In this document: piece after piece, positions 19,882 through 27,690 of the stretch
How the letters are laid out: every line of letters begins with the position of its first letter
Numbering within the stretch: the first letter of the stretch is position 1
IMG/VR virus record: IMGVR_UViG_2917855067_000004
Direction: 5' to 3' (one strand)
Length of the DNA: 29,767 nucleotides
DNA from: a virus
Lineage: Duplodnaviria > Heunggongvirae > Uroviricota > Caudoviricetes
Notes under the pieces: model-generated
Database searches by the model: none
Seen by the model: only the letters and a program-made list of their open reading frames with translations
Told to the model about the DNA's origin: nothing
Made by a program: the position numbers and the translations under genes

Positions 19882-20025
19882 CATACCCCGCCACCATCAC
19901 GCCTCAGACGCGCCACGCGCGCACGACCACACAAGACCACCTACGAACCGACAGCATCCACTACAGCGCCATCACGACGCGCTCAGACGATAATTTTTAT
20001 TATTACGCACCACCGCTGGCGCGCA

Positions 20026-20044
20026 ATGCTTTCCCCGCCACGCC
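20026..20044. other. cos site (19-nt cohesive-end sequence of P2/186 type)
   Basis: The reverse complement reads GGCGTGGCGGGGAAAGCAT, which matches the 186 cohesive end as I remember it (P2 differs at 2 positions); it sits downstream of Q as expected. Confidence 0.75.
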
Positions 20045-20204
20045 TGCCCGCTTTATAGGGCGGTTTTAATGCAGTTGCATGATCACTCTGGATCCGCGCC
20101 AGCTCAGGCGGCGCACGGCCAGAACGGGCCCCCCCGGCGCATGCAAAACCATGCACCTGTTGCATGCACGGCTAAAAAACAGGGAAATCGCGTAAAAATG
20201 GCAT

Positions 20205-20247
20205 AAAAAAAAACCGGCATTCGCGGTGCCGGTTTCGGTCTGATTTT
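20205..20247. terminator. Bidirectional intrinsic terminator (strongest for the minus strand)
   Basis: A9 run, hairpin CCGGCA-TTCGCGG-TGCCGG, then a T-rich run; on the minus strand the hairpin is followed by U9. Confidence 0.6.
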
Positions 20248-20254
20248 GTCGCGA

Positions 20255-20356
20255 TTACTGGCCGCGCAATGCGCTGATAACACTATTGAGGCACATGCTG
20301 GCAACAATCAGCAGAAAAATTGTCGTCCACGGATTTTCATAAACGAGAGATAACAT
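20255..20356 (-). CDS. Hypothetical 33-aa single-TM peptide (MLSLVYENPWTTIFLLIVASMCLNSVISALRGQ)
   Basis: ATG at 20354-20356 with AAAGGA upstream; ~20-residue hydrophobic core; stop TAA at 20255-20257, directly followed by the strong terminator. Below the ORF-track length cutoff; not matched to a known family. Confidence 0.4.
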   Translation of the reverse strand: MLSLVYENPWTTIFLLIVASMCLNSVISALRGQ

Positions 20357-20372
20357 ATTGATATAGATCCTT

Positions 20373-20564
20373 TTATTTGTGCATTCTGATGTGGTTTAAC
20401 AGGTGTTTGATAATGGTCGTAAGCTCATCTTTACTGGCGTGCTCTACCATTTTTGCGGTGTAGCTTTCCACCTCGCGAGAGCTCAGGTCGTTATTTAAAG
20501 CCATTACAGTCAGCTTTTTTGCCCAATCGGCAAATGGGTCTATCGATGAAAGGGAATTATGCAT
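20373..20564 (-). CDS. Hypothetical 63-aa protein (MHNSLSSIDPFADWAKKLTVMALNNDLSSREVESYTAKMVEHASKDELTTIIKHLLNHIRMHK)
   Basis: Internal ATG at 20562-20564 with a GAGG Shine-Dalgarno 9 nt upstream; 16 nt upstream of the 33-aa peptide gene; AT-rich. The 91-aa track form starts at a weaker site. Confidence 0.5.
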   Translation of the reverse strand: MHNSLSSIDPFADWAKKLTVMALNNDLSSREVESYTAKMVEHASKDELTTIIKHLLNHIRMHK

Positions 20565-20995
20565 GTCCAAAAACCTCGAATTATTTAACCAGCAGACGGC
20601 GGAAATCTTTGCGGTGTTATGGGATAACTTCCCGGTGCCACAGGTCATTACCTACGAAAAATTTAAACGCCGCGCTACCTGATGACTACTTTGACCAACT
20701 TAACTCACCGGAAATGAAAGCACTGAATCAGTTGCGCAGTGTGGTTGAGGGTACATTCACTTTTCTCAGTGAAAACGGCTACATCCAGTACGGAACAGAC
20801 CACCAGACCTATTTTTATGATGTGCGCCTGACCGAGAAAGCACTCGCCGTGCTTAACAAAAAGCCCGAGGCGCTCGGCGGTAATGAAACAATGGGCGATA
20901 AGATTATCAGTGCAGTGAAAGACGGGACGCCGGGAGTGATTGCCGGTGCGGTGACAAACCTGCTTACCCTCGGTGTCAATCTGGTAACCAGTTAA
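20563..20995 (+). pseudogene. Frame-disrupted hypothetical gene: 39-aa frame-1 ORF (20563-20682) plus ~105-aa continuation in another frame to 20995
   Basis: ATG 20563 with AAGGGA 7 nt upstream gives MSKNLELFNQQTAEIFAVLWDNFPVPQVITYEKFKRRAT then tandem TGATGA; protein-like sequence continues one base out of frame (LPDDYFDQLNSPEMKALNQ...GVIAGAVTNLLTLGVNLVTS) to a TAA at 20993-20995. Confidence 0.4.
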
Positions 20996-20996
20996 C

Positions 20997-21052
20997 GCCT
21001 CGCGGGGCGTCGTTGTTCAACCCCGTCAGCACTGAAAGCGAGTTTCAGCGCT
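20997..21052. repeat. Structured repeat element R1 (GC stem-loop plus 10-bp hairpin with GCGAG loop)
   Basis: GCCTCGCGGGGCGTCGTTGTTCAACCCCGTC then AGCACTGAAA-GCGAG-TTTCAGCGCT; homologous to R2 about 405 bp away. Confidence 0.5.
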
Positions 21053-21062
21053 GAGACGTTTG

Positions 21063-21272
21063 CTATCGTCGACGTGGTGGAGGTGCGTATTTTGTCGGTC
21101 TGCTGATGCTATCCAGCTTGCCGCAATTATCCCTGACTATTTCGGCACACCCGACCAGCTCGGTGGGTGTCAAATTCTCATTGACCATTATCTGCTGCAG
21201 GCGATGAACGATAGCCATTAACTTAATATTTCTGGTCTGGTGCTGCGGTATTTCACCTGGTAGTCGATGCAT
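21063..21272 (-). CDS. Hypothetical 69-aa protein
   Basis: ATG at 21270-21272 with a GAGGG Shine-Dalgarno 7 nt upstream; lies between R2 and R1; no family recognised. Confidence 0.45.
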   Translation of the reverse strand: MHRLPGEIPQHQTRNIKLMAIVHRLQQIMVNENLTPTELVGCAEIVRDNCGKLDSISRPTKYAPPPRRR

Positions 21273-21401
21273 ATTATCACCCTCAATGAATTTTAATCAG
21301 TGCCGTCAAAACGCCACTATAAAACCCTCTCAGGTCATGCCTCATTCATCACTGGCGTGTCATCAATAGCACATTGAGAAATTTTGAAAGGCAGGACTAA
21401 A

Positions 21402-21455
21402 GCCTCGTGGGCTCGTTACTCAACCCCGTCGACGCAAAAAGCTAGTTTTTGCGCC
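21402..21455. repeat. Structured repeat element R2 (homologue of R1; hairpin with GCTAG loop)
   Basis: GCCTCGTGGGCTCGTTACTCAACCCCGTC then GACGCAAAAA-GCTAG-TTTTTGCGCC; stem differs from R1 by base changes that preserve pairing. Confidence 0.5.
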
Positions 21456-21471
21456 AACACGGTTATCATGT

Positions 21472-21702
21472 TTAACGCCAGCTATCGTCTTCCCAAATCT
21501 CTTGTAATATGCCGCTTAATGTTTCTTTGTCTGCTTCTTTATCGAATCCGATAACCTCTACACCAGTCATTGACCCTTTCTTGACGTTAACTTTTATTGC
21601 AGGAAAAACGCATTGTACTCGATGTGTTATTTCATTCTGAAAAGCATCAATGATCTGTTGCCCTAATTTTTGTTCTTTATCCAACGTGATATTGATTCTC
21701 AT
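21472..21702 (-). CDS. DinI-family protein (likely the C-terminal part of a Tum-like SOS-inducible antirepressor)
   Basis: 76 aa MRINITLDKEQKLGQQIIDAFQNEITHRVQCVFPAIKVNVKKGSMTGVEVIGFDKEADKETLSGILQEIWEDDSWR resembles E. coli DinI (MRIEVTIAK...ILQETWE) from memory. Confidence 0.8.
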   Translation of the reverse strand: MRINITLDKEQKLGQQIIDAFQNEITHRVQCVFPAIKVNVKKGSMTGVEVIGFDKEADKETLSGILQEIWEDDSWR

Positions 21703-21705
21703 AAT

Positions 21706-21888
21706 CTAATCAGCCTTATAAAAATTATCATCTTCGGTTTCGTTATTCTCGCTGTTTGCTAGGTCTGCAATGAGAGTGAGCGCGAGCTTTAAGTCTGATG
21801 GCTTGCAGTTTGCAATCAGAGATACCTCGGCAATAAATTGCACACAAGCCCACTTTTGCTGCGTTCGGCTGAAATGTTCGTCAACCAT
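21706..21888 (-). CDS. Hypothetical 60-aa protein, first gene of the LexA-box operon (possible Tum N-terminal part)
   Basis: ATG at 21886-21888 with AGGAGG 6 nt upstream; ends at a TAG that is in frame with, and one codon before, the DinI-like ATG. Confidence 0.55.
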   Translation of the reverse strand: MVDEHFSRTQQKWACVQFIAEVSLIANCKPSDLKLALTLIADLANSENNETEDDNFYKAD

Positions 21889-21907
21889 GGAATCCCTCCT
21901 ACAGGGT

Positions 21908-22001: not shown

Positions 22002-24296
22002 TTACTCTGATATTGGTTTTGATGCTTCAGCTATCGCAGCAACACGATTAAGGATTTTTCTGGCTTTAGCCTCATGCGATGGTGCTGTGGAAAATATTTC
22101 TCCTTTGGCCGTTCCGCGTAGCCATTTACCATCAAAACAACTTTTACCACCGGCCATCAGGTGCAGAGCTTCGCCCCGGCTGATATTAATGCCGGTTGTC
22201 AAATGTATCTCTTCGATAGTTTTCGCTATAGCTGCGTTTTGCTCATCCGTTCCGTGGACGAATTTTCGCCGTGCTGCTGGCTTTTGCTTCCTGAGTCGGT
22301 TGGTCAACTCTCGTCTTTCACGCCGACTCAGTGGTTTTGTTAAATCCAGTATCGGTGGATCGCTTTCGCTTCCCGTACAGTTATTGACAGAACTCCGAGG
22401 GACGGCTTTGCCGTCCTGAAGGTCAACGGCCAAATCAACAGCATGCTTCGGAACAATCTTCCACTGAGTGAGTCGGGTTAATATCGGGCTCCCTGCACCT
22501 ATGGAGGAATCGTAGACCCCCTTAATACATACCGTTTCCTCACCGTACTGATTAAGCTCGGTACGCGGTTCATACAGTGTGCGCACCTGTAAATCATCGC
22601 GACGGACAAACGGTCCACCCTGCGCATTAACATACCCAGCCCAGTCACCAGCGTCGGCGGCATCATGGACGGCGGCAAACTCAACGCTCAGTCCGTGCGC
22701 GGTTTCGGTATCAGCGAGGCGACGCAACTCACGGTAAACCGTCACCGGCGCACCACCGATAAACTGAAACTGACGGATGTGCCAGCGCGAAGCCCATGCT
22801 GAAACGGCGGGGGCTGTCTCTTTCAGCAGTTCACCACTTTCATCATCGGTTTCACCATCGAGAGCATAACCGTCGATATTTTTTGAGATGTATTTAGCAA
22901 CATAGCCGGTTGCGCTGCCTTTCTCCGGGTCAATGGACTCGGCGTGGAAACGTGCTTTTTTGGATTTATCGCTTTTCAGTTCGTGGCGGTCTTCTTTCCA
23001 TGCGTATTTACGGACGATGGAGCGAACATATTCAACATCTTCCGGCAGCATGAACATCAGCATGTGCCAGTGTGGAGTGCCGTCGTGATGGGGCTCGGCG
23101 ACACGAATACCGAAAATACGGACATCTTCCCGATGTAGTTTGGCACGGATGCGCGCCCAGATACCGGTTAGATAGTTTTGCGTGTCAGCCGGGCTGGCAC
23201 CGCTCCATTTGCTGTTACGGTAACCGGCTTTAGTTGTGGCGTGATATTTTGACGGCGCGGTTAGAGTGTAAAACTCACCGACATAACCGAGCTCATTACA
23301 GATGTTTTCAAACCCACGAATGCGGGTCATGAGCTCACAGCGGCGAATCGCAGGGTTAGCAACTGAGCCATCATATTTTTCAATTAGGCTGATACGGTTG
23401 CCGTCTTCGTCTTCGAGATCCAGACCTTTGAGAAATTCACGAGTTCGGCGCTTTTGTTCACGCCAGTCAGTCACGCAGTTTTTACTCGCATAGGTGTTTT
23501 TTTTCTTGCTGACGTTGCCGACTGCAATTTGCAGGTGTTCGCGCCATGTAGCTGCAACCCGGCGCAAACGACCACGCCACCACCCATCGTTAAACATCTT
23601 GGCGATAGCCGGTGCGATTTCATCCGCTCCGACATATTTTTTTGCAACCCGATCCCAATGGGGTGGGATAACGTTGAACTGGAGGGAAATAAAGCCAGCA
23701 CGATTATACCAAGTGTACAGCGTTTTAAGCTCGCCGAATCCGTGGTCATTAATGCTGGCAAGTTCACCACGAATGAAATTAGCAATATCGGCGGCCAACA
23801 GGTCAACATCAGCGCGCGACATATCCGGGAGGCGGTTATATCGGGCGACCATATTAACCATGCGTGACGCCAGATATTGCATAAGCTGGGTATCAAAATG
23901 ACTTCCAAAAACAGAGGTTGATACCTTGCTGTTGATACCCGCGCATTCGTATTTTTTTGCGACCAATTCAAGACGCGGCAATGCCTTTTTGCAGAAGCTG
24001 ATCAAAAAGGCATTGGCTCGTTGAATGCCCTGATTTTGCTCCAGCACTGCCGCAGTGCGATAAACATCTAACCGCACGCAGTCGGGCTGGAGAGAAAGCA
24101 CCTTTTTCGCATGCAGCAAAGCCGCGAACATACGGTCGCGGCGATGCTGTTGCTCGTAAGTAAGGTATGGGCTGGCTATAGCCGACCGTGGAGCATTCCA
24201 CGGATAAGCAAAAGTAATATCTAATGCCCCTCCGTCATGTATCATCTGTCGACTTTCTTTTTGATTCCATAACATTGGTCGTGTAGCCTCCCACAA
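22002..24296 (-). CDS. A: Replication initiation protein A (rolling-circle nickase)
   Basis: 764 aa; size and position match P2 gpA; contains a His-hydrophobic-His motif (PHWHMLMF) and a YVAKY motif consistent with rolling-circle Rep proteins. Confidence 0.93.
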   Translation of the reverse strand: MWEATRPMLWNQKESRQMIHDGGALDITFAYPWNAPRSAIASPYLTYEQQHRRDRMFAALLHAKKVLSLQPDCVRLDVYRTAAVLEQNQGIQRANAFLISFCKKALPRLELVAKKYECAGINSKVSTSVFGSHFDTQLMQYLASRMVNMVARYNRLPDMSRADVDLLAADIANFIRGELASINDHGFGELKTLYTWYNRAGFISLQFNVIPPHWDRVAKKYVGADEIAPAIAKMFNDGWWRGRLRRVAATWREHLQIAVGNVSKKKNTYASKNCVTDWREQKRRTREFLKGLDLEDEDGNRISLIEKYDGSVANPAIRRCELMTRIRGFENICNELGYVGEFYTLTAPSKYHATTKAGYRNSKWSGASPADTQNYLTGIWARIRAKLHREDVRIFGIRVAEPHHDGTPHWHMLMFMLPEDVEYVRSIVRKYAWKEDRHELKSDKSKKARFHAESIDPEKGSATGYVAKYISKNIDGYALDGETDDESGELLKETAPAVSAWASRWHIRQFQFIGGAPVTVYRELRRLADTETAHGLSVEFAAVHDAADAGDWAGYVNAQGGPFVRRDDLQVRTLYEPRTELNQYGEETVCIKGVYDSSIGAGSPILTRLTQWKIVPKHAVDLAVDLQDGKAVPRSSVNNCTGSESDPPILDLTKPLSRRERRELTNRLRKQKPAARRKFVHGTDEQNAAIAKTIEEIHLTTGINISRGEALHLMAGGKSCFDGKWLRGTAKGEIFSTAPSHEAKARKILNRVAAIAEASKPISE

Positions 24297-24318
24297 AGTT
24301 GAGTGTTAAAAAGGTGCT

Positions 24319-24624
24319 GTGATGCAACATAAATTATTCAAGATGAAAGACAGTTTGAATCTGCCGCCATATGATTCGGCCCTGTCTGCGTGGCTTGAGA
24401 ATCAGCAGGAATCCATTCCTGGAGTTCCATATAAAATCCTTGTCTGCAATGAGAATGTTTTTTACAGGGCTCTCACCTGTGATGGATTGGGAGAGTACGC
24501 CGCAGCGTGTGAATTTCTCCACTCTCTGGGTCTAGTAGATGCCTCGGATTACGGAATGGGTCTGAAAGATTACGACTCAGTATTTTTAAGTCAGGAGTAT
24601 ATTGACCGAGCATTTTCTCAATAG
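24319..24624 (+). CDS. Hypothetical 101-aa protein, opposite orientation to the early operon, AT-rich
   Basis: ATG 24319 with AAAAGG 7 nt upstream; protein-like throughout; weak hairpin plus T-run after the stop; overlaps the 3' end of the convergent 134-aa ORF by ~150 bp, so one of the two is partly spurious. Confidence 0.4.
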   Translation: MMQHKLFKMKDSLNLPPYDSALSAWLENQQESIPGVPYKILVCNENVFYRALTCDGLGEYAAACEFLHSLGLVDASDYGMGLKDYDSVFLSQEYIDRAFSQ

Positions 24625-24877
24625 CATTGGCGAATAATACGCCCATTTTTTCTATTTCTACGACCATCTCTTTAAGTGAAGTTATGGTCGAATTCTGAAT
24701 ATGACGGTGAATTAATCCTGAAATAAGTTGTTCAATTTTTGGGTAATATCCGATGGCATCAAGCCATTCCTCGCCAGATTTTTTCCCGGATTGAGCGACT
24801 TTCTTTTCATTAAGGATAAATTGATACTGGTCGCTAGTAATAATCCATTTGTCACCTATTTCGATTCGAAAACTCAT
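24473..24877 (-). CDS. Hypothetical protein (134-aa ORF; the first ~90 aa look most protein-like)
   Basis: ATG 24875-24877 with AGGGG 7 nt upstream, immediately after the TraR-like stop; the C-terminal ~45 aa are Pro/Arg/His-rich and overlap the plus-strand ORF. Confidence 0.5.
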   Translation of the reverse strand: MSFRIEIGDKWIITSDQYQFILNEKKVAQSGKKSGEEWLDAIGYYPKIEQLISGLIHRHIQNSTITSLKEMVVEIEKMGVLFANAIEKMLGQYTPDLKILSRNLSDPFRNPRHLLDPESGEIHTLRRTLPIHHR

Positions 24878-25099
24878 TTACACGCCCCTGTAGTGTTTTG
24901 ATTTGAGCTCGGCGATTTGCTGACAAGTCACGCAAAATGCCACCCCCTGAATTGCCGCACGGCGGGCTTCCTGGATTGGTGCGTCACATTCTTCGCATAG
25001 GAAAGGAGAGGTCGCTGCAATACGGCAGCGCGCGTTGCTGATGTGGCGTTCGCGGTCTTCCTGCTCGCGCAGTTGTGCTAAATCCATTGCGTCGGCCAT
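24878..25099 (-). CDS. TraR/DksA-family C4 zinc-finger protein
   Basis: 73 aa with CEECDAPIQEARRAAIQGVAFCVTCQ (two CxxC pairs), as in the phage/plasmid TraR-like small zinc-finger proteins. Confidence 0.8.
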   Translation of the reverse strand: MADAMDLAQLREQEDRERHISNARCRIAATSPFLCEECDAPIQEARRAAIQGVAFCVTCQQIAELKSKHYRGV

Positions 25100-25326
25100 T
25101 AGTGCAGCTCCTGTGATTCGTTTTCGTAGCGGTTGGCTTCACGTCGCAGCAGTTCAGCGGCTTCGGTGCCGTTCATGCCCTCTTTAGTGATATGGATAGC
25201 CAGCGCCTCAAGACGGATTGAAACGGCGAGTGCGCGGTCTTTGCGTTCTTCTTTTTTGGCATCTGTCAGCAGCACGGCCAGAGTATCACTATCAGTATTA
25301 AAACTACGGGATTCGGTATTACGCAT
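25099..25326 (-). CDS. Hypothetical 75-aa early protein
   Basis: ATG 25324-25326 with AGGAG 8 nt upstream; stop overlaps the TraR-like start (TAATG). Confidence 0.5.
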   Translation of the reverse strand: MRNTESRSFNTDSDTLAVLLTDAKKEERKDRALAVSIRLEALAIHITKEGMNGTEAAELLRREANRYENESQELH

Positions 25327-25378
25327 AACTAACTCTCCTGATTTTGGGCAATAAAATGCCCGACGGGTTTACGCCAGA

Positions 25379-25398
25379 TAATTAATTGTGATTAATTA
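25379..25398. promoter_or_regulatory. Perfect AT-rich palindrome TAATTAAT-TGTG-ATTAATTA (candidate operator)
   Basis: 8-4-8 inverted repeat in the intergenic region between two early genes, overlapping the upstream stop codon. Confidence 0.4.
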
Positions 25399-25596
25399 GC
25401 TATAGCCAAATACAACGGCAGGTTTACTTTTTAACTGGCTGATAATCTCAGCTTTCAGGCCATCCTTAAACTCTTTGCAGCACTCCCACTCAGGGTCAAC
25501 GCGAAGTATTGCACCATCGCGGGTTTTAATTTCAAAACCGTCTTCCATATTCGGAATCATGGCTCCTAAAACAATTCTTAATTCATCACGTGACAT
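25396..25596 (-). CDS. Hypothetical 66-aa early protein
   Basis: Start moved to ATG 25594-25596 (MSRDELRIVLGAMIPNMEDGFEIKTRDG...) with AAGGGA 6 nt upstream; the track's longer form starts at TTG. Confidence 0.45.
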   Translation of the reverse strand: MSRDELRIVLGAMIPNMEDGFEIKTRDGAILRVDPEWECCKEFKDGLKAEIISQLKSKPAVVFGYS

Positions 25597-25810
25597 GCTT
25601 AATCCCTTTAATAATAAAGTGGACAATACGAATAATTAAAAAGCCTGACGACTTCGACTGCTTAGATTTCAGCCCTTTTAATAATTCGGACTGAGAGCGG
25701 CACGGGTGCCAGCGCTTACCATCTTTACCTGCGATCCAGCCGTGACCGTAATGCATACCTGGACTTTGCTTAACGAGCAGAGATGCGAATGAGGGTTCAT
25801 TTTTCAGCAT
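25586..25810 (-). CDS. Hypothetical 74-aa early protein
   Basis: Start moved to ATG 25808-25810 (MLKNEPSFASLLVKQ...), 8 nt after the cII stop with a GAGG Shine-Dalgarno. Confidence 0.45.
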   Translation of the reverse strand: MLKNEPSFASLLVKQSPGMHYGHGWIAGKDGKRWHPCRSQSELLKGLKSKQSKSSGFLIIRIVHFIIKGIKHVT

Positions 25811-25817
25811 AAACACC

Positions 25818-26327
25818 TCATACCAAACCAAATGTTGCGCCGATGCCGGTCATGGTATCAACCACGCTCGACATTGCCGGGTTAGCCTGTAGACGCGCCT
25901 GTAACGCCAGCGCCGACAGAGACAACATGCGGATGCCTGCATTAACACTCTCAACCATGTTGTGTTTGCGGTCAGAGGTCATACGTTCATTTGATACCGC
26001 ACCGCTCGCCAGTTCGCCGAGTTCACTCATTGCGCGCATCACATAAGACTGCAATTTCTCTTTAGCCAGCTCATTAACTGGCACGCATGGCAGACAATGT
26101 ATCTGCGCCAGAAAGCCATCAACGAGGGTTGAGTCTTCGGTCAGGTCAGTCAGCAGCCACAATTCAGGCGGTGTGAATTGGTGAGGCTGTTCTGGGTTGA
26201 GCTTGTTACGTAACGTTTGAACGTTCATACCCGCACGCTCGGCCAGCTTCGCCATGTTGTGACGCTGCGCAAAAGCCCGGCACGCTTCGTCATAGTGAGG
26301 ATGTTTAGAAATCTGAAAATCAAACAT
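25818..26327 (-). CDS. cII: CII-like transcriptional activator (186 type)
   Basis: Start moved to ATG 26325-26327 with GAGGG 9 nt upstream, giving 169 aa MFDFQISKHPHYDEACRAFAQRHNMAKLAERAGMNVQTLRNKL...; matches 186 CII length and my recollection of its N-terminus. Confidence 0.8.
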   Translation of the reverse strand: MFDFQISKHPHYDEACRAFAQRHNMAKLAERAGMNVQTLRNKLNPEQPHQFTPPELWLLTDLTEDSTLVDGFLAQIHCLPCVPVNELAKEKLQSYVMRAMSELGELASGAVSNERMTSDRKHNMVESVNAGIRMLSLSALALQARLQANPAMSSVVDTMTGIGATFGLV

Positions 26328-26359
26328 GGTTAAATTCCCTCTAACTTGCATAATCAAAT

Positions 26360-26731
26360 TCAGTTAAGAGCGATGCGGTGGTCGATGTAGCGACAATCAA
26401 TCGCTTGCTGGGTTAGTTTGTCGCGCCATGCTTTCACGTTTACGAGGGTGCGGCTTCGTTTTCCAGCCTCTTCCTTGTTGGAAAAGTCTTTAGTTGGAGC
26501 TTTGAGGAGGATTCCCTCATCAAGCCATTGCCAGACCAGCCGCTCGCTTACACCGCGAGTGGCGGCAAAGTCTTTCACTGTCATTGTGTCTGACATAGCG
26601 GAGCGGATCATTGTCTGCAGAGCTGGCAGCATAGCGGTAACGATCGCATCAAACTGAGCCGGATCTAACAGCACAGTTTGATTTTGTGAGTTTTGCGAAT
26701 CATGCGTCGAGATTGATTTTGCATCTGACAT
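26360..26731 (-). CDS. apl: Apl/Cox-like excisionase and transcriptional regulator (start uncertain)
   Basis: Divergent from cI; HTH-like ...MTVKDFAATRGVSERLVWQWLDEGILLKAP...; the 123-aa ORF is longer than 186 Apl (87 aa), so an internal start is possible. Confidence 0.65.
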   Translation of the reverse strand: MSDAKSISTHDSQNSQNQTVLLDPAQFDAIVTAMLPALQTMIRSAMSDTMTVKDFAATRGVSERLVWQWLDEGILLKAPTKDFSNKEEAGKRSRTLVNVKAWRDKLTQQAIDCRYIDHRIALN

Positions 26732-26844
26732 ATCGCATTATCTCCTGTTGTTTGAAATGTTGTGCAGTGGTGTGCATCTTGGTCGATGAACACCAATATA
26801 GATCGCTAAATTTTTGTTGTAAACAAAATTCTTGTTGGTGCTAT

Positions 26845-27690
26845 ATGTCTAAAAATGATGTCAATGCGTCTGCCGCTTTAGAGCGAGTCCTTTCTGCATA
26901 CGGTTTTAAGCAGCAAAAAGAACTAGCTGAAAGGCTTGGTATTCATGCGAACAACGTAAGTAGTTGGCTTGCAAGAAACGTGATCCCAAGCAACGTTTTC
27001 GTTGAGTGCGCTCTTGATACAGGGGCTGACCTGCGATGGCTTGTTAATGGTGAACTTGCAAATACAAAATATGACGAGAGGCAAGTAAATCTCAAAGGTA
27101 AGCAACTCTATGATGAAATCATGGCTAATGGAGGAAGGGCGGTTCTGCGTCGTATTCTCGATGCGTATGGTTTTACTATGCAAAAAGAGTTGGGAGATTT
27201 ATTAGGCATATCCTCTGGTACTATAAGCACTTGGGTCAGACGCGATTTTTTCCCTGGTGATGTGGTTGTAACCTGCGCCCTCGATACAGGCGTATCGTTA
27301 GAATGGTTATCTACGGGAAAAGGCCAGATGCGTAACAGCAAGGATGGTGAGTCAGCTAATTCTTTAACGATTAGAAAATGCCGCCTTGAGGCAGGTGAAC
27401 TCAAGGATATCGGGCGTTGGACTCCTGATGTCTCTATGGTTCCGGCAAACACTGATGATTTAGTCTTTATTGATGGCGTGAGTGCATCTTGGCTTGTTGA
27501 TTGTTCTAACTCAAAGATAGGAAATGGTCGTTGGCTTATTGGTATTGATGGTGCGCTCGATATTTTTGACGTAATCAGATTGCCCGGAGGAAAGGTCAGG
27601 CTATCAAATAAGTCTGTTGAGTTTGAATGTAATCTTTCTGATATCACACCATCAGGTGCCGTTTTCTTTACTTTGGAAAAGCATGTTTAA
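26845..27690 (+). CDS. cI: CI immunity repressor (186 type) with tandemly duplicated N-terminal DNA-binding domain
   Basis: Start placed at ATG 26845 (MSKNDV...); two homologous ~65-aa segments (...LSAYGFKQQKELAERLGI...CALDTGADLRWLVNGE and ...LDAYGFTMQKELGDLLGI...CALDTGVSLEWLSTGKG) followed by a ~125-aa C-terminal domain. Confidence 0.75.
   Translation: MSKNDVNASAALERVLSAYGFKQQKELAERLGIHANNVSSWLARNVIPSNVFVECALDTGADLRWLVNGELANTKYDERQVNLKGKQLYDEIMANGGRAVLRRILDAYGFTMQKELGDLLGISSGTISTWVRRDFFPGDVVVTCALDTGVSLEWLSTGKGQMRNSKDGESANSLTIRKCRLEAGELKDIGRWTPDVSMVPANTDDLVFIDGVSASWLVDCSNSKIGNGRWLIGIDGALDIFDVIRLPGGKVRLSNKSVEFECNLSDITPSGAVFFTLEKHV

What the first reader, a model, noticed from the sequence alone, without database searches (positions are those of the whole stretch)
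24297..24880. AT-rich island inside the early operon with two convergent, overlapping ORFs
A plus-strand 101-aa ORF with a good ribosome-binding site runs opposite to the early operon just upstream of gene A. It overlaps the last ~150 bp of a minus-strand 134-aa ORF whose final ~45 residues look non-protein-like. A gene oriented against the lytic operon would be expressed from the prophage, which is typical for exclusion or defence morons. The true extent of each ORF is unresolved, and a frameshift in the minus ORF is possible.
Basis: seen in the sequence. Interest (0 to 1): 0.5.

Follow-up and report, generated by a model that had tools for sequence, protein, structure and literature searches.

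The report
Backward-facing small gene beside phage replication gene
Inside the early operon of a 186/P2-like prophage, a real but uncharacterised 100-residue gene points the opposite way, head-to-head with replication gene A, and the neighbouring early gene has lost its stop codon and reads 44 meaningless codons into it; this is an unusual placement for an accessory gene, and its function is still unknown.

Summary
The plus ORF (ATG 24322 to 24624, 100 aa) and the minus ORF (24473-24877, 134 aa) overlap by 152 bp in an island of 40% GC, against 53% for the window.

The plus ORF is a real gene. It matches phrog_19905 (E 4e-34), shows purifying selection (pN/pS 0.24 in the overlap), and gives a confident AlphaFold model with no fold relative. 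The family is rare. In every P2/186-like context examined it lies head-to-head with gpA and antisense to the early operon, from Enterobacterales to Vibrio.

The minus ORF is a complete DUF5405 (P2 Orf83) protein plus a 44-residue read-through tail, not a frameshift. The family is normally 89-93 aa, and the tail evolves neutrally (pN/pS 1.31). The same tail is fused to Dam methylase or to short leaders in other phages.

A phage whose gpA is 97% identical lacks the whole island, so the island is accessory.

The plus gene looks like its own transcription unit. A TTGATT-17-TAGCCT motif and the RBS are invariant in seven loci, and a weak hairpin with a U-run follows the stop.

It matches no known defence, toxin-antitoxin or regulator family. 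The best reading is a prophage-expressed accessory gene of unknown function. A role in controlling gpA, and selection for translation across the antisense region, remain open.

The parts
24322..24624 (+). Plus-strand gene, 100 aa plus stop. It encodes an acidic (pI 4.5), cytoplasmic alpha/beta protein of family phrog_19905.
   Evidence: PHROG match E 4e-34 over profile positions 4-94 of 94. Twelve homologues at 62-89% identity. pN/pS 0.24. AF2 pLDDT 86.8. pI.
24310..24316 (+). Ribosome-binding site AAAGGTG of the plus gene.
   Evidence: Sequence. AAAAGGT is invariant in seven group-I loci.
24261..24289 (+). Putative sigma-70-type promoter of the plus gene: -35 TTGATT (24261-24266), 17-nt spacer, -10 TAGCCT (24284-24289). 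It overlaps the first codons and the SD of gpA on the other strand.
   Evidence: Both hexamers and the spacer length are invariant in seven loci whose flanks diverge. It matches only 7 of 12 consensus positions and was not picked up by the consensus scans. This part is inferred, not shown.
24629..24651 (+). Weak terminator-like hairpin GGCG-N7-CGCC followed by U6, just after the plus-gene stop and inside the DUF5405 coding sequence.
   Evidence: Fold energy -5 kcal/mol, z-score -0.8. Better hairpin-plus-U-run sites sit at the same place in L007 and L030.
24608..24877 (-). Complete DUF5405 / P2 Orf83-like early gene, residues 1 to about 90 of the 134-aa ORF.
   Evidence: Pfam PF17399, 62.5 bits against a cut-off of 21.6, residues 5-88 matching profile positions 1-86 of 88. 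Aligned with 90-aa relatives.
24473..24607 (-). Read-through tail of 44 codons plus the stop, antisense to codons 51-96 of the plus gene.
   Evidence: Absent from nearly all DUF5405 proteins. The same tail is fused to Dam methylase in L016 and L017 and to short leaders elsewhere. pN/pS 1.31. pLDDT below 50.
24473..24624 (.). Convergent overlap of the two ORFs, 152 bp.
22002..24275 (-). Replication gene A (gpA). The likely start is ATG 24275, with SD GGGAGG at 24287-24292. The first ~20 codons belong to the island.
   Evidence: Pfam Phage_GPA E 5e-131. The 46-bp spacing matches the called gene in L005. Homology to relatives starts at about 24215.
24216..24877 (.). Accessory island: DUF5405, the plus gene and a new gpA N-terminus. 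It is an indel relative to the nearest relative.
   Evidence: In L047 (gpA 97% identical) the TraR stop is followed 2 nt later by the gpA start. Midge and RCIP0057 carry DUF5405 plus an in-line orf91-like gene instead.

Best explanation
The window is a 186-like prophage. An accessory island lies between the TraR-like gene and replication gene A.

Shown:
1. The plus ORF is a genuine protein-coding gene of a rare, uncharacterised family. It encodes a small acidic soluble alpha/beta protein.
2. In every P2/186-like context examined, this gene lies head-to-head with gpA and antisense to the early lytic operon.
3. The minus ORF is an intact DUF5405 (P2 Orf83-like) gene. Its stop codon was lost at the junction with the plus-gene cassette, so early-operon ribosomes read 44 further codons through the antisense of the plus gene's 3' half. 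They stop at a position fixed by the conserved Leu/Ile51-Thr52 codons of the plus gene. The tail has no sequence-level function.

Inferred:
4. The plus gene is an autonomous transcription unit, with a weak promoter overlapping the gpA start, its own RBS, and a hairpin with a U-run after the stop.
5. It is transcribed when CI keeps the convergent early operon silent. That would make it a prophage-expressed accessory (moron-type) gene.
6. Its protein most likely acts in the lysogen on phage-related processes, either exclusion of incoming phages or restraint of the gpA replication module. The target is unknown.
For: Gene reality:
- phrog_19905 match, E 4e-34.
- Twelve homologues at 62-89% identity and about 15 distant ones.
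- pN/pS is 0.24 in the plus frame and 1.31 in the minus frame of the overlap.
- AF2 pLDDT 86.8, pTM 0.80.

Position:
- The gene is head-to-head with gpA in the loci fetched. The right-hand neighbour varies: DUF5405, Dam methylase or small ORFs.
- The same holds for a member 27% identical in the family alignment (L035).
- It also holds in a Vibrio phage at about 35% identity.

Accessory nature:
- L047, with 97% identical gpA, lacks the island.
- Only 1 of the roughly 70 IMG/VR gpA loci with enough upstream sequence carries a member.
- None of 5,426 complete E. coli genomes has it, and only 1 phage record does.
- GC is 0.40 against 0.53.
- Plus-protein identity and gpA identity are poorly correlated (Spearman 0.25).

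Transcription unit:
- TTGATT-17-TAGCCT and the RBS are invariant in seven loci.
- Hairpins with U-runs follow the stop.

Lysogenic-side linkage:
- In the non-P2 element L042, a distant member sits on the same strand as, and upstream of, an HTH gene and an integrase gene. It is divergent from a GPA-like operon.

Tail:
- DUF5405 proteins are 89-93 aa.
- The same tail is attached to Dam methylase in L016 and L017 and to Dam remnants or short leaders elsewhere.
Against: - There is no expression data. The promoter-like motif is weak (7 of 12 consensus positions) and no scan reported it.
- Group-II loci have a different motif (CATTTATAAC/A) with no -35 element.
- The window's terminator is marginal.
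- Nothing links the protein to defence or exclusion (PADLOC none). No fold relative was found.
- The same family sits at the same place down to 27-35% identity. That differs from typical moron hotspots, which hold diverse cargo, and could point to a role tied to gpA or the operon rather than a free-standing moron.
Confidence: 0.6

Rival explanations
1. The module regulates replication. Transcription of the plus gene, its protein, or both restrain gene A. The mechanism would be convergent-promoter interference or antisense pairing with the early mRNA just before gpA, or direct antagonism of the gpA nickase. This would act as a safeguard in lysogeny and would incidentally exclude related phages.
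For: - The gene is strictly adjacent to gpA, head-to-head, in all P2/186-like members.
- The putative promoter overlaps the gpA start codon and SD. In group II the -10-like TATAAC/A abuts the gpA ATG.
- A distant member is divergent from a GPA-like operon in a different integrative element.
- Precedents exist: 186 pR/pE convergent-promoter interference (PMC6593788) and the prophage antisense RNA STnc6030, which excludes its own phage type (PMC7067206).
Against: - The island is dispensable. L047 has 97% identical gpA and lacks it.
- Plus-protein divergence and gpA divergence are nearly uncorrelated.
- Strong purifying selection on the protein shows that the product matters, not only the RNA.
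- No 186-CII, LexA or Ogr site lies upstream of the plus gene, although a CII-type inverted repeat is found elsewhere at 26301-26327.
Confidence: 0.2
2. The overlap is selected rather than accidental. Phages carrying the reversed gene keep an open reading frame on the operon strand across its antisense. Ribosomes then stay on the early mRNA, which avoids Rho-dependent polarity and restores coupling to gpA. The 134-aa ORF would be one instance of this translation bridge.
For: - In relatives without the reversed gene, gpA overlaps the upstream gene by 4-11 nt, which suggests translational coupling.
- The frame entering the plus gene is open to the same stop (plus start +151) in 14 of 16 distinct homologues. 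Per-sequence probabilities are 0.03-0.5. Some sequences keep the frame open by using Ile ATA at codon 94.
- The tail is fused in frame to DUF5405, to full-length Dam methylase, to two different in-frame Dam remnants and to leaders with coupled starts, such as the ATGA overlap in L011.
- ORFs span the whole antisense in L019, L035 (ATGA onto gpA), L109 (ends 7 nt before gpA) and Vibrio L001.
Against: - With the best of three frames, synonymous resampling already gives 165-200 nt of stop-free antisense. Per-locus P is 0.05-0.7.
- The sequences are phylogenetically related, so the low joint probabilities are overstated.
- In the window the bridge stops 197 nt before the gpA ATG, and gpA has its own SD.
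Confidence: 0.2
3. The plus ORF is spurious, and the true gene is a longer DUF5405 variant whose C-terminal extension is functional.
For: NCBI annotates the 134-aa product as a DUF5405 family protein (HDZ8014075.1). No NCBI record was found for the window's plus protein cluster.
Against: - pN/pS is 1.31 in the minus frame and 0.24 in the plus frame.
- The plus family extends to members at 24-36% identity that are not next to DUF5405.
- The same tail is attached to unrelated proteins.
- The tail has pLDDT below 50.
Confidence: 0.02
4. The 134-aa ORF results from a frameshift, a sequencing error or an assembly error in a normal DUF5405 gene.
For: The length (134 aa against 89-93 aa) and the odd composition of the tail prompted this idea.
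Against: - The DUF5405 domain is complete and the ORF continues in the same frame.
- 134-aa products at 90% identity or more occur in independent assemblies, in clusters of 10 and 45 members.
- They also occur in L005, L006, L020 and L026.
Confidence: 0.02
5. The two overlapping genes form a toxin-antitoxin or similar two-gene module.
For: The genes are convergent, overlapping and small, and they lie in a mobile element.
Against: - The partner is not conserved. The plus gene occurs next to Dam methylase or small unrelated ORFs, without DUF5405.
- DUF5405 occurs in hundreds of phages without the plus gene.
- PADLOC and Pfam give no match for the plus protein.
Confidence: 0.03

Closest known systems
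PHROG family phrog_19905 (unknown function)
   Same: The plus protein matches the profile almost end to end (E 4e-34). Length and conserved motifs are the same: P-x-Y/F-D, Y-R, G-L-G-E-Y and D-S-V-F.
   Different: The family has no described function, structure or genomic-context analysis. The head-to-head position with gpA and the overlap with early genes are reported here from the loci examined.
P2 Orf83 / 186 Orf83 (Pfam DUF5405)
   Same: Residues 1 to about 90 of the minus ORF are 65-76% identical to the homologues in 186, Midge and RCIP0057. They occupy the same place after the TraR-like gene.
   Different: The family is 89-93 aa. This copy has lost its stop and carries a 44-residue antisense-derived tail.
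P2 lysogenic-conversion / exclusion genes old, tin and fun(Z), and the gpA-gpQ hotspot of P2-like prophages (Rousset et al. 2022, PMC9122126)
   Same: An AT-rich accessory gene with patchy distribution in a P2-like prophage. It is plausibly expressed from the repressed prophage.
   Different: It lies upstream of gpA inside the early operon, not between gpA and gpQ. The slot holds the same family across distant phages rather than diverse cargo. It matches no known defence protein. Anti-phage activity has not been tested.
Convergent-transcription control in temperate phages: 186 pR/pL and pR/pE interference (PMC6593788); the antisense RNA STnc6030 of prophage BTP1 (PMC7067206); lambda paQ and OOP (my own knowledge)
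   Same: A lysogeny-side transcript runs antisense to a lytic operon. Here it would start on top of the gpA translation start.
   Different: This transcript encodes a protein under strong purifying selection. No CII-type activator site is present. No expression or interference data exist.

Membership tests
phrog_19905 | Significant full-length match to the family profile HMM. | tested here: met
   E 4e-34, 117.9 bits, residues 8-96 against profile positions 4-94 of 94.
DUF5405 (PF17399; P2 Orf83) | Score above the Pfam gathering threshold over the whole domain. | tested here: met
   62.5 bits against a cut-off of 21.6. Residues 5-88 match profile positions 1-86 of 88.
DUF5405 (PF17399; P2 Orf83) | Single-domain protein of about 90 aa that ends shortly after the last helix. 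| tested here: not met
   This ORF is 134 aa. Almost all of the 120 homologues listed are 89-93 aa, and only two near-identical clusters share the tail.
Moron / prophage accessory transcription unit | Present in some closely related phages and absent from others, with deviant base composition. | tested here: met
   L047, with 97% identical gpA, lacks it. Only 1 of about 70 IMG/VR gpA loci has a member. GC is 0.40 against 0.53.
Moron / prophage accessory transcription unit | Own promoter and terminator flanking the gene. | tested here: inconclusive
   The TTGATT-17-TAGCCT motif is conserved in seven loci but is weak and was not found by the scans. The window's hairpin plus U6 is marginal (-5 kcal/mol).
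Moron / prophage accessory transcription unit | Expressed from the repressed prophage. | not testable with these tools
   This needs strand-specific RNA-seq or TSS mapping of the lysogen.
Known anti-phage defence systems (PADLOC-DB v2) | Match to any defence-protein HMM. | tested here: not met
   No family at E <= 1 for either ORF.
P2-like gpA-gpQ defence hotspot (Rousset 2022) | Located between gpA and the portal gene gpQ. | tested here: not met
   The gene lies upstream of gpA, on the early-operon side.
Type II toxin-antitoxin pair | Two co-conserved adjacent genes. | tested here: not met
   The neighbour of the plus gene varies: DUF5405, Dam methylase or small ORFs. DUF5405 mostly occurs without the plus gene.
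CII-activated antisense promoter (lambda paQ / 186 pE type) | A CII-type inverted repeat (ATGTTTA-N13-CAAACAT geometry, as found in this window at 26301-26327) upstream of the promoter. | tested here: not met
   No such repeat occurs in 24150-24330. The half-site geometry is taken from PMC6593788.

The most novel reading that the evidence does not exclude
The reversed gene, its promoter on top of the gpA start, and the obligatory run of early-operon ribosomes into its antisense form one conserved device. In the lysogen it would block stray transcription or translation from reaching gpA, and its protein might also antagonise the gpA nickase. After induction, early transcription and bridging translation would override it. 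This would be a previously undescribed replication safeguard, or self-exclusion switch, shared by elements that use gpA-type rolling-circle initiators.
Probability: 0.12. Interest if true: 0.65.

Novelty: new member of a known kind. Interest (0 to 1): 0.4.

Why it matters
- P2/186-like prophages are a main model for lysogenic-conversion and defence hotspots. The described hotspots lie outside the early operon. A conserved reverse-oriented gene head-to-head with the replication gene would be an extra, unstudied accessory slot.
- The family has no fold or sequence relatives, so it may hide a new activity.
- The locus is also a practical warning for annotation. No NCBI record was found for the window's plus protein cluster. 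The neighbouring DUF5405 gene is recorded with an artefactual 44-residue tail.
- The locus offers a clean natural system for asking whether operons compensate for an inserted antisense gene by keeping it translatable on the other strand.

Tried and rejected
- **Homology searches.** Pfam, NCBIfam and PADLOC gave nothing for the plus protein. A profile search against PDB sequences gave nothing.
- **Giant surface proteins.** Apparent hits to P0019, P0027 and P0028 are sums of 2-6-bit matches to MBG or Ig-like repeats. I rejected them as spurious.
- **RNA families.** Rfam has no match in 23800-25400.
- **Regulatory sites upstream of the plus gene.** There is no Ogr/Delta site (TGT-N12-ACA), no LexA box and no 186-CII inverted repeat. 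No sigma-70 site reaches 8 of 12 matches in most loci.
- **gpA-specific partner.** Co-divergence of the plus protein and gpA is weak (Spearman 0.25).
- **Selection for an open antisense frame.** A frame-specific test was suggestive. A best-of-three-frames null removed the significance.
- **P2 Orf83 alignment to residue 109.** This tblastn hit is an over-extension, because P2 Orf83 is 91 aa.
- **AF2 model of the 134-aa ORF.** Confidence was low overall (mean pLDDT 51). It supports a disordered tail only weakly.
- **Literature.** No paper mentions DUF5405. Searches on P2-like hotspots and prophage transcriptomes did not mention this slot.

Full report
**Setting.** The window is a 186-like (Peduoviridae) prophage. 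The early operon lies on the minus strand. It contains:
- a CP76/CII gene (25818-26357);
- Fil (25586-25831);
- a DUF2732 gene (25099-25326);
- a TraR/DksA zinc-finger gene (24878-25099);
- a DUF5405 ORF (24473-24877);
- replication gene A (22002 to about 24275), followed by a DinI-like gene.

CI and integrase lie on the plus strand further right. Large parts of the region are 84-91% identical to Salmonella phages SW9 and SEN1, Escherichia phage Midge and phage 186. The plus protein is 100% identical to one encoded in Escherichia sp. E1V33 (L020).

- The plus ORF runs from GTG 24319 or ATG 24322 to 24624. Homologues start M-Q/E-H-K and are 100-102 aa, so ATG 24322 is the start. It is preceded by AAAGGTG.
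- The minus ORF 24473-24877 is 134 aa, and the overlap is 152 bp.
- GC over 24297-24880 is 0.401 against 0.532 for the window, in the lowest 1.6% of equal-sized windows.
- The plus start lies 46 bp from the gpA ATG at 24275. That gpA start is preceded on the minus strand by GGGAGG at 24287-24292. The spacing matches the called gene in L005.

**The plus ORF is a real gene.**
- It matches phrog_19905 end to end (E 4e-34).
- A search of 5.8 billion proteins gave 12 homologues at 62-89% identity. A profile search of 1.84 billion representatives gave only 19 hits. Apart from three very long repeat proteins treated below as spurious, these are stand-alone proteins of 56-116 aa. The family is small and rare.
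- Across 14 distinct sequences, pN/pS is 0.22/0.72 for codons 1-50 and 0.16/0.64 for codons 51-96.
- Within the overlap, the plus frame gives pN/pS 0.24 and the minus frame 1.31. Only the plus frame is under protein-level selection.
- AlphaFold gives a confident compact alpha/beta model (pLDDT 86.8, pTM 0.80).
- The protein is acidic (pI 4.5), and I see no signal peptide or membrane segment on inspection.

**Its position is conserved.** In every P2/186-like context I could fetch, the gene sits antisense to the early operon with its start facing the start of gpA. The gap is roughly 35-140 bp.
- The gene on the other side varies: DUF5405 (window, L005, L006), Dam methylase (L007, L015, L016), or small unrelated ORFs (L011, L019).
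- The same holds for a member 27% identical in the family alignment (L035).
- It holds for a member found by scanning gpA loci (L109).
- It holds in a Vibrio cyclitrophicus phage at about 35% identity (PQ189330).
- Plus-protein identity and gpA identity are nevertheless poorly correlated (Spearman 0.25). For example, one pair shows 86% against 48%, and another 32% against 64%. The gene and its immediate flanks therefore recombine independently of the body of gpA.

**The island is accessory.**
- An IMG/VR phage with 97% identical gpA (L047) has the TraR stop followed 2 nt later by the gpA start. It has neither DUF5405 nor the plus gene. The island 24216-24877 is therefore an indel that also supplies the first ~20 codons of gpA.
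- Midge and RCIP0057 have DUF5405 plus an in-line orf91-like gene at this place. Their similarity to the window breaks at about 24210 and resumes at about 24629, right after the plus-gene stop. SW9 has a queuine tRNA-ribosyltransferase gene there, and 186 has other genes.
- Only 1 of the roughly 70 IMG/VR gpA loci with enough upstream sequence carries a family member.
- No complete E. coli genome has it, and only one phage record does.

**The minus ORF is DUF5405 with a read-through tail.**
- The Pfam domain covers residues 5-88. Of the 120 best of 304 homologues listed, nearly all are 89-93 aa. Only two near-identical 134-aa clusters have the tail. P2 Orf83 is 91 aa.
- The tail begins exactly where the plus gene's stop codon lies.
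- Its sequence (YTPD...SDPFRNP.HLLDPESGEIHTLRR...) reappears in L016 and L017 on the end of a Dam methylase (340 aa against about 276 aa). It reappears in L021, L027 and L028 on in-frame Dam remnants, and in L007, L011, L030 and L034 on 79-81-aa ORFs with their own start codons.
- The tail always ends at plus start +151. There the conserved Leu/Ile51-Thr52 codons create an antisense stop.
- The tail is basic, rich in Pro, His and Arg, has pLDDT below 50, and evolves neutrally.
- This is not a frameshift or an error, because 134-aa products at 90% identity or more occur in many independent assemblies.

**Is the overlap selected?**
- In relatives without the reversed gene, gpA overlaps the preceding gene by 4-11 nt. 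The cassette breaks this coupling.
- In the cassette-bearing phages, an operon-strand ORF almost always enters the antisense of the plus gene.
- In L019, L035, L109 and the Vibrio phage, one or two ORFs span the whole antisense and end at or within 11 nt of a candidate gpA start. L035 has an ATGA overlap.
- Frame-specific synonymous resampling gave per-sequence probabilities of 0.03-0.5. Some lineages keep the frame open with Ile ATA.
- When the best of three frames is allowed, 165-200 nt of stop-free antisense is expected by chance, and per-locus P is 0.05-0.7.
- I therefore treat a translation bridge that protects gpA expression from polarity as an open hypothesis, not a finding.

**Expression signals.**
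- Seven group-I loci share an invariant TTGATT, a 17-nt spacer, TAGCCT and AAAAGGT upstream of the ATG, while the surrounding sequence diverges. In three of these loci the motif is intergenic. In the window it lies at 24261-24289, over the gpA start and SD.
- Group-II loci instead share CATTTATAAC/A, a -10-like hexamer that abuts the gpA ATG.
- Neither motif is a strong consensus promoter.
- Hairpins followed by U-runs sit just after the stop in L007 and L030. The window's version is weak.
- No Ogr, LexA or CII-type site is present upstream.
- In L042, a non-P2 integrative element, a distant member sits on the same strand as, and upstream of, an HTH gene and an integrase gene. It is divergent from a GPA-like operon. 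This fits expression on the lysogenic side.

**Interpretation.**
- Firmly supported: the anatomy. A reversed accessory gene sits head-to-head with gpA, and DUF5405 carries a junction-derived tail.
- Inferred: prophage expression, from the orientation inside a CI-repressed operon and from the conserved motif.
- Unknown: function. I rank the readings as follows:
  1. a lysogen-expressed accessory protein (combined confidence 0.6);
  2. a regulator or antagonist of the gpA module (0.2);
  3. selection for bridging translation, which is not exclusive of the other two (0.2).
- Essentially excluded: a spurious plus ORF, a frameshift, or a toxin-antitoxin pair.

**Comparison with known systems.**
- The described accessory hotspot of P2-like prophages lies between gpA and gpQ (PMC9122126). 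This slot is on the other side of gpA, inside the early operon.
- The closest functional analogies are the lysogenic-conversion genes of P2 and antisense or convergent-transcription devices: 186 pR/pE (PMC6593788) and STnc6030 of BTP1 (PMC7067206). None shares sequence or a tested feature with this gene.
- The gene is a new member of an already catalogued but uncharacterised family. Its conserved placement and its overlap with early genes appear not to have been described.

Noticed in passing
window 26301-26327: An inverted repeat ATGTTTA-N13-CAAACAT, 20 bp centre to centre, lies at the 5' end of the CII-like gene. This matches the half-site geometry described for 186 CII at pE (PMC6593788), so it is probably this phage's pE activator site.
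   Followed up: partly
L047 3287-3520 (IMG/VR UViG_3300045988_123514): A near-isogenic phage with 97% identical gpA. Its TraR-like gene is followed 2 nt later by a TTG-initiated gpA. It has neither DUF5405 nor the reversed gene, so it is a natural 'empty site' control.
   Followed up: yes
L021 3652-3861, L027 3652-3912, L028 2788-3048, L035 3962-4549 (minus strand): Dam methylase remnants. Each keeps the N-terminal 10-45 residues and is joined in frame to the antisense of the reversed gene. Their start codons are still coupled to the upstream gene. In L035 the ORF ends in an ATGA overlap with the gpA start.
   Followed up: partly
L019 2986-3345 (-), L109 2334-2636 (+), L001 3961-4215 (-): Operon-strand ORFs cover all or nearly all of the antisense of the family gene and stop within 7-11 nt of a candidate gpA start. 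They use different frames in different lineages, so they do not encode a conserved protein.
   Followed up: partly
window 24235-24330 (-) and 24338-24430 (-): Two small minus-strand ORFs of 31 and 30 aa start at ATGs created by the antisense of the conserved His3 and Pro36-Tyr37 codons of the plus gene. Together with the tail they leave only about 45 nt untranslated before the gpA start. The same pair recurs in group-I loci. Significance was not assessed.
   Followed up: no
window 24322-24624 and public records: The exact plus protein and its 90% cluster (12 members) have no NCBI or UniRef accession. The overlapping 134-aa product is deposited as a DUF5405 family protein (HDZ8014075.1). Where there is no overlap (Rahnella), the family is annotated as hypothetical. 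Annotation pipelines probably drop the plus gene when it overlaps.
   Followed up: partly
L042 3791-6241 (NCBI GCA_000389825.1, KB944443.1): A distant family member (P0022) lies on the same strand as, and upstream of, an HTH gene and an integrase gene. It is divergent from an operon that holds a 601-aa GPA-like protein, in what looks like a small non-P2 integrative element. The two 5' coding ends overlap by 6 nt.
   Followed up: partly
L037 / L038 3172-4291: A borderline family member (P0024, E 4e-4) lies downstream of a DnaE2-like polymerase gene and an S24 peptidase (LexA/UmuD-like) gene, not next to gpA.
   Followed up: no
window 19900-21900: The gpA-to-portal region, which is the known P2-like accessory hotspot, holds a DinI-like gene (21472-21702, minus strand). 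It also holds several small ORFs without Pfam matches, including a 180-aa plus-strand ORF at 20453-20995.
   Followed up: no
window 26686-27690 (+): This 334-aa ORF carries the CI repressor domains only in residues 152-321. Its first ~150 codons overlap the Apl-position gene (26360-26731, minus strand) and give weak HTH hits. The true CI start is probably internal, near 27100.
   Followed up: no
P0019, P0027, P0028 (2,100-2,600-aa proteins): The family profile gives summed E-values down to 4e-8 against giant proteins with MBG or Ig-like repeats. Each repeat scores only 2-6 bits. This is a repeat-summing artefact, not homology.
   Followed up: yes
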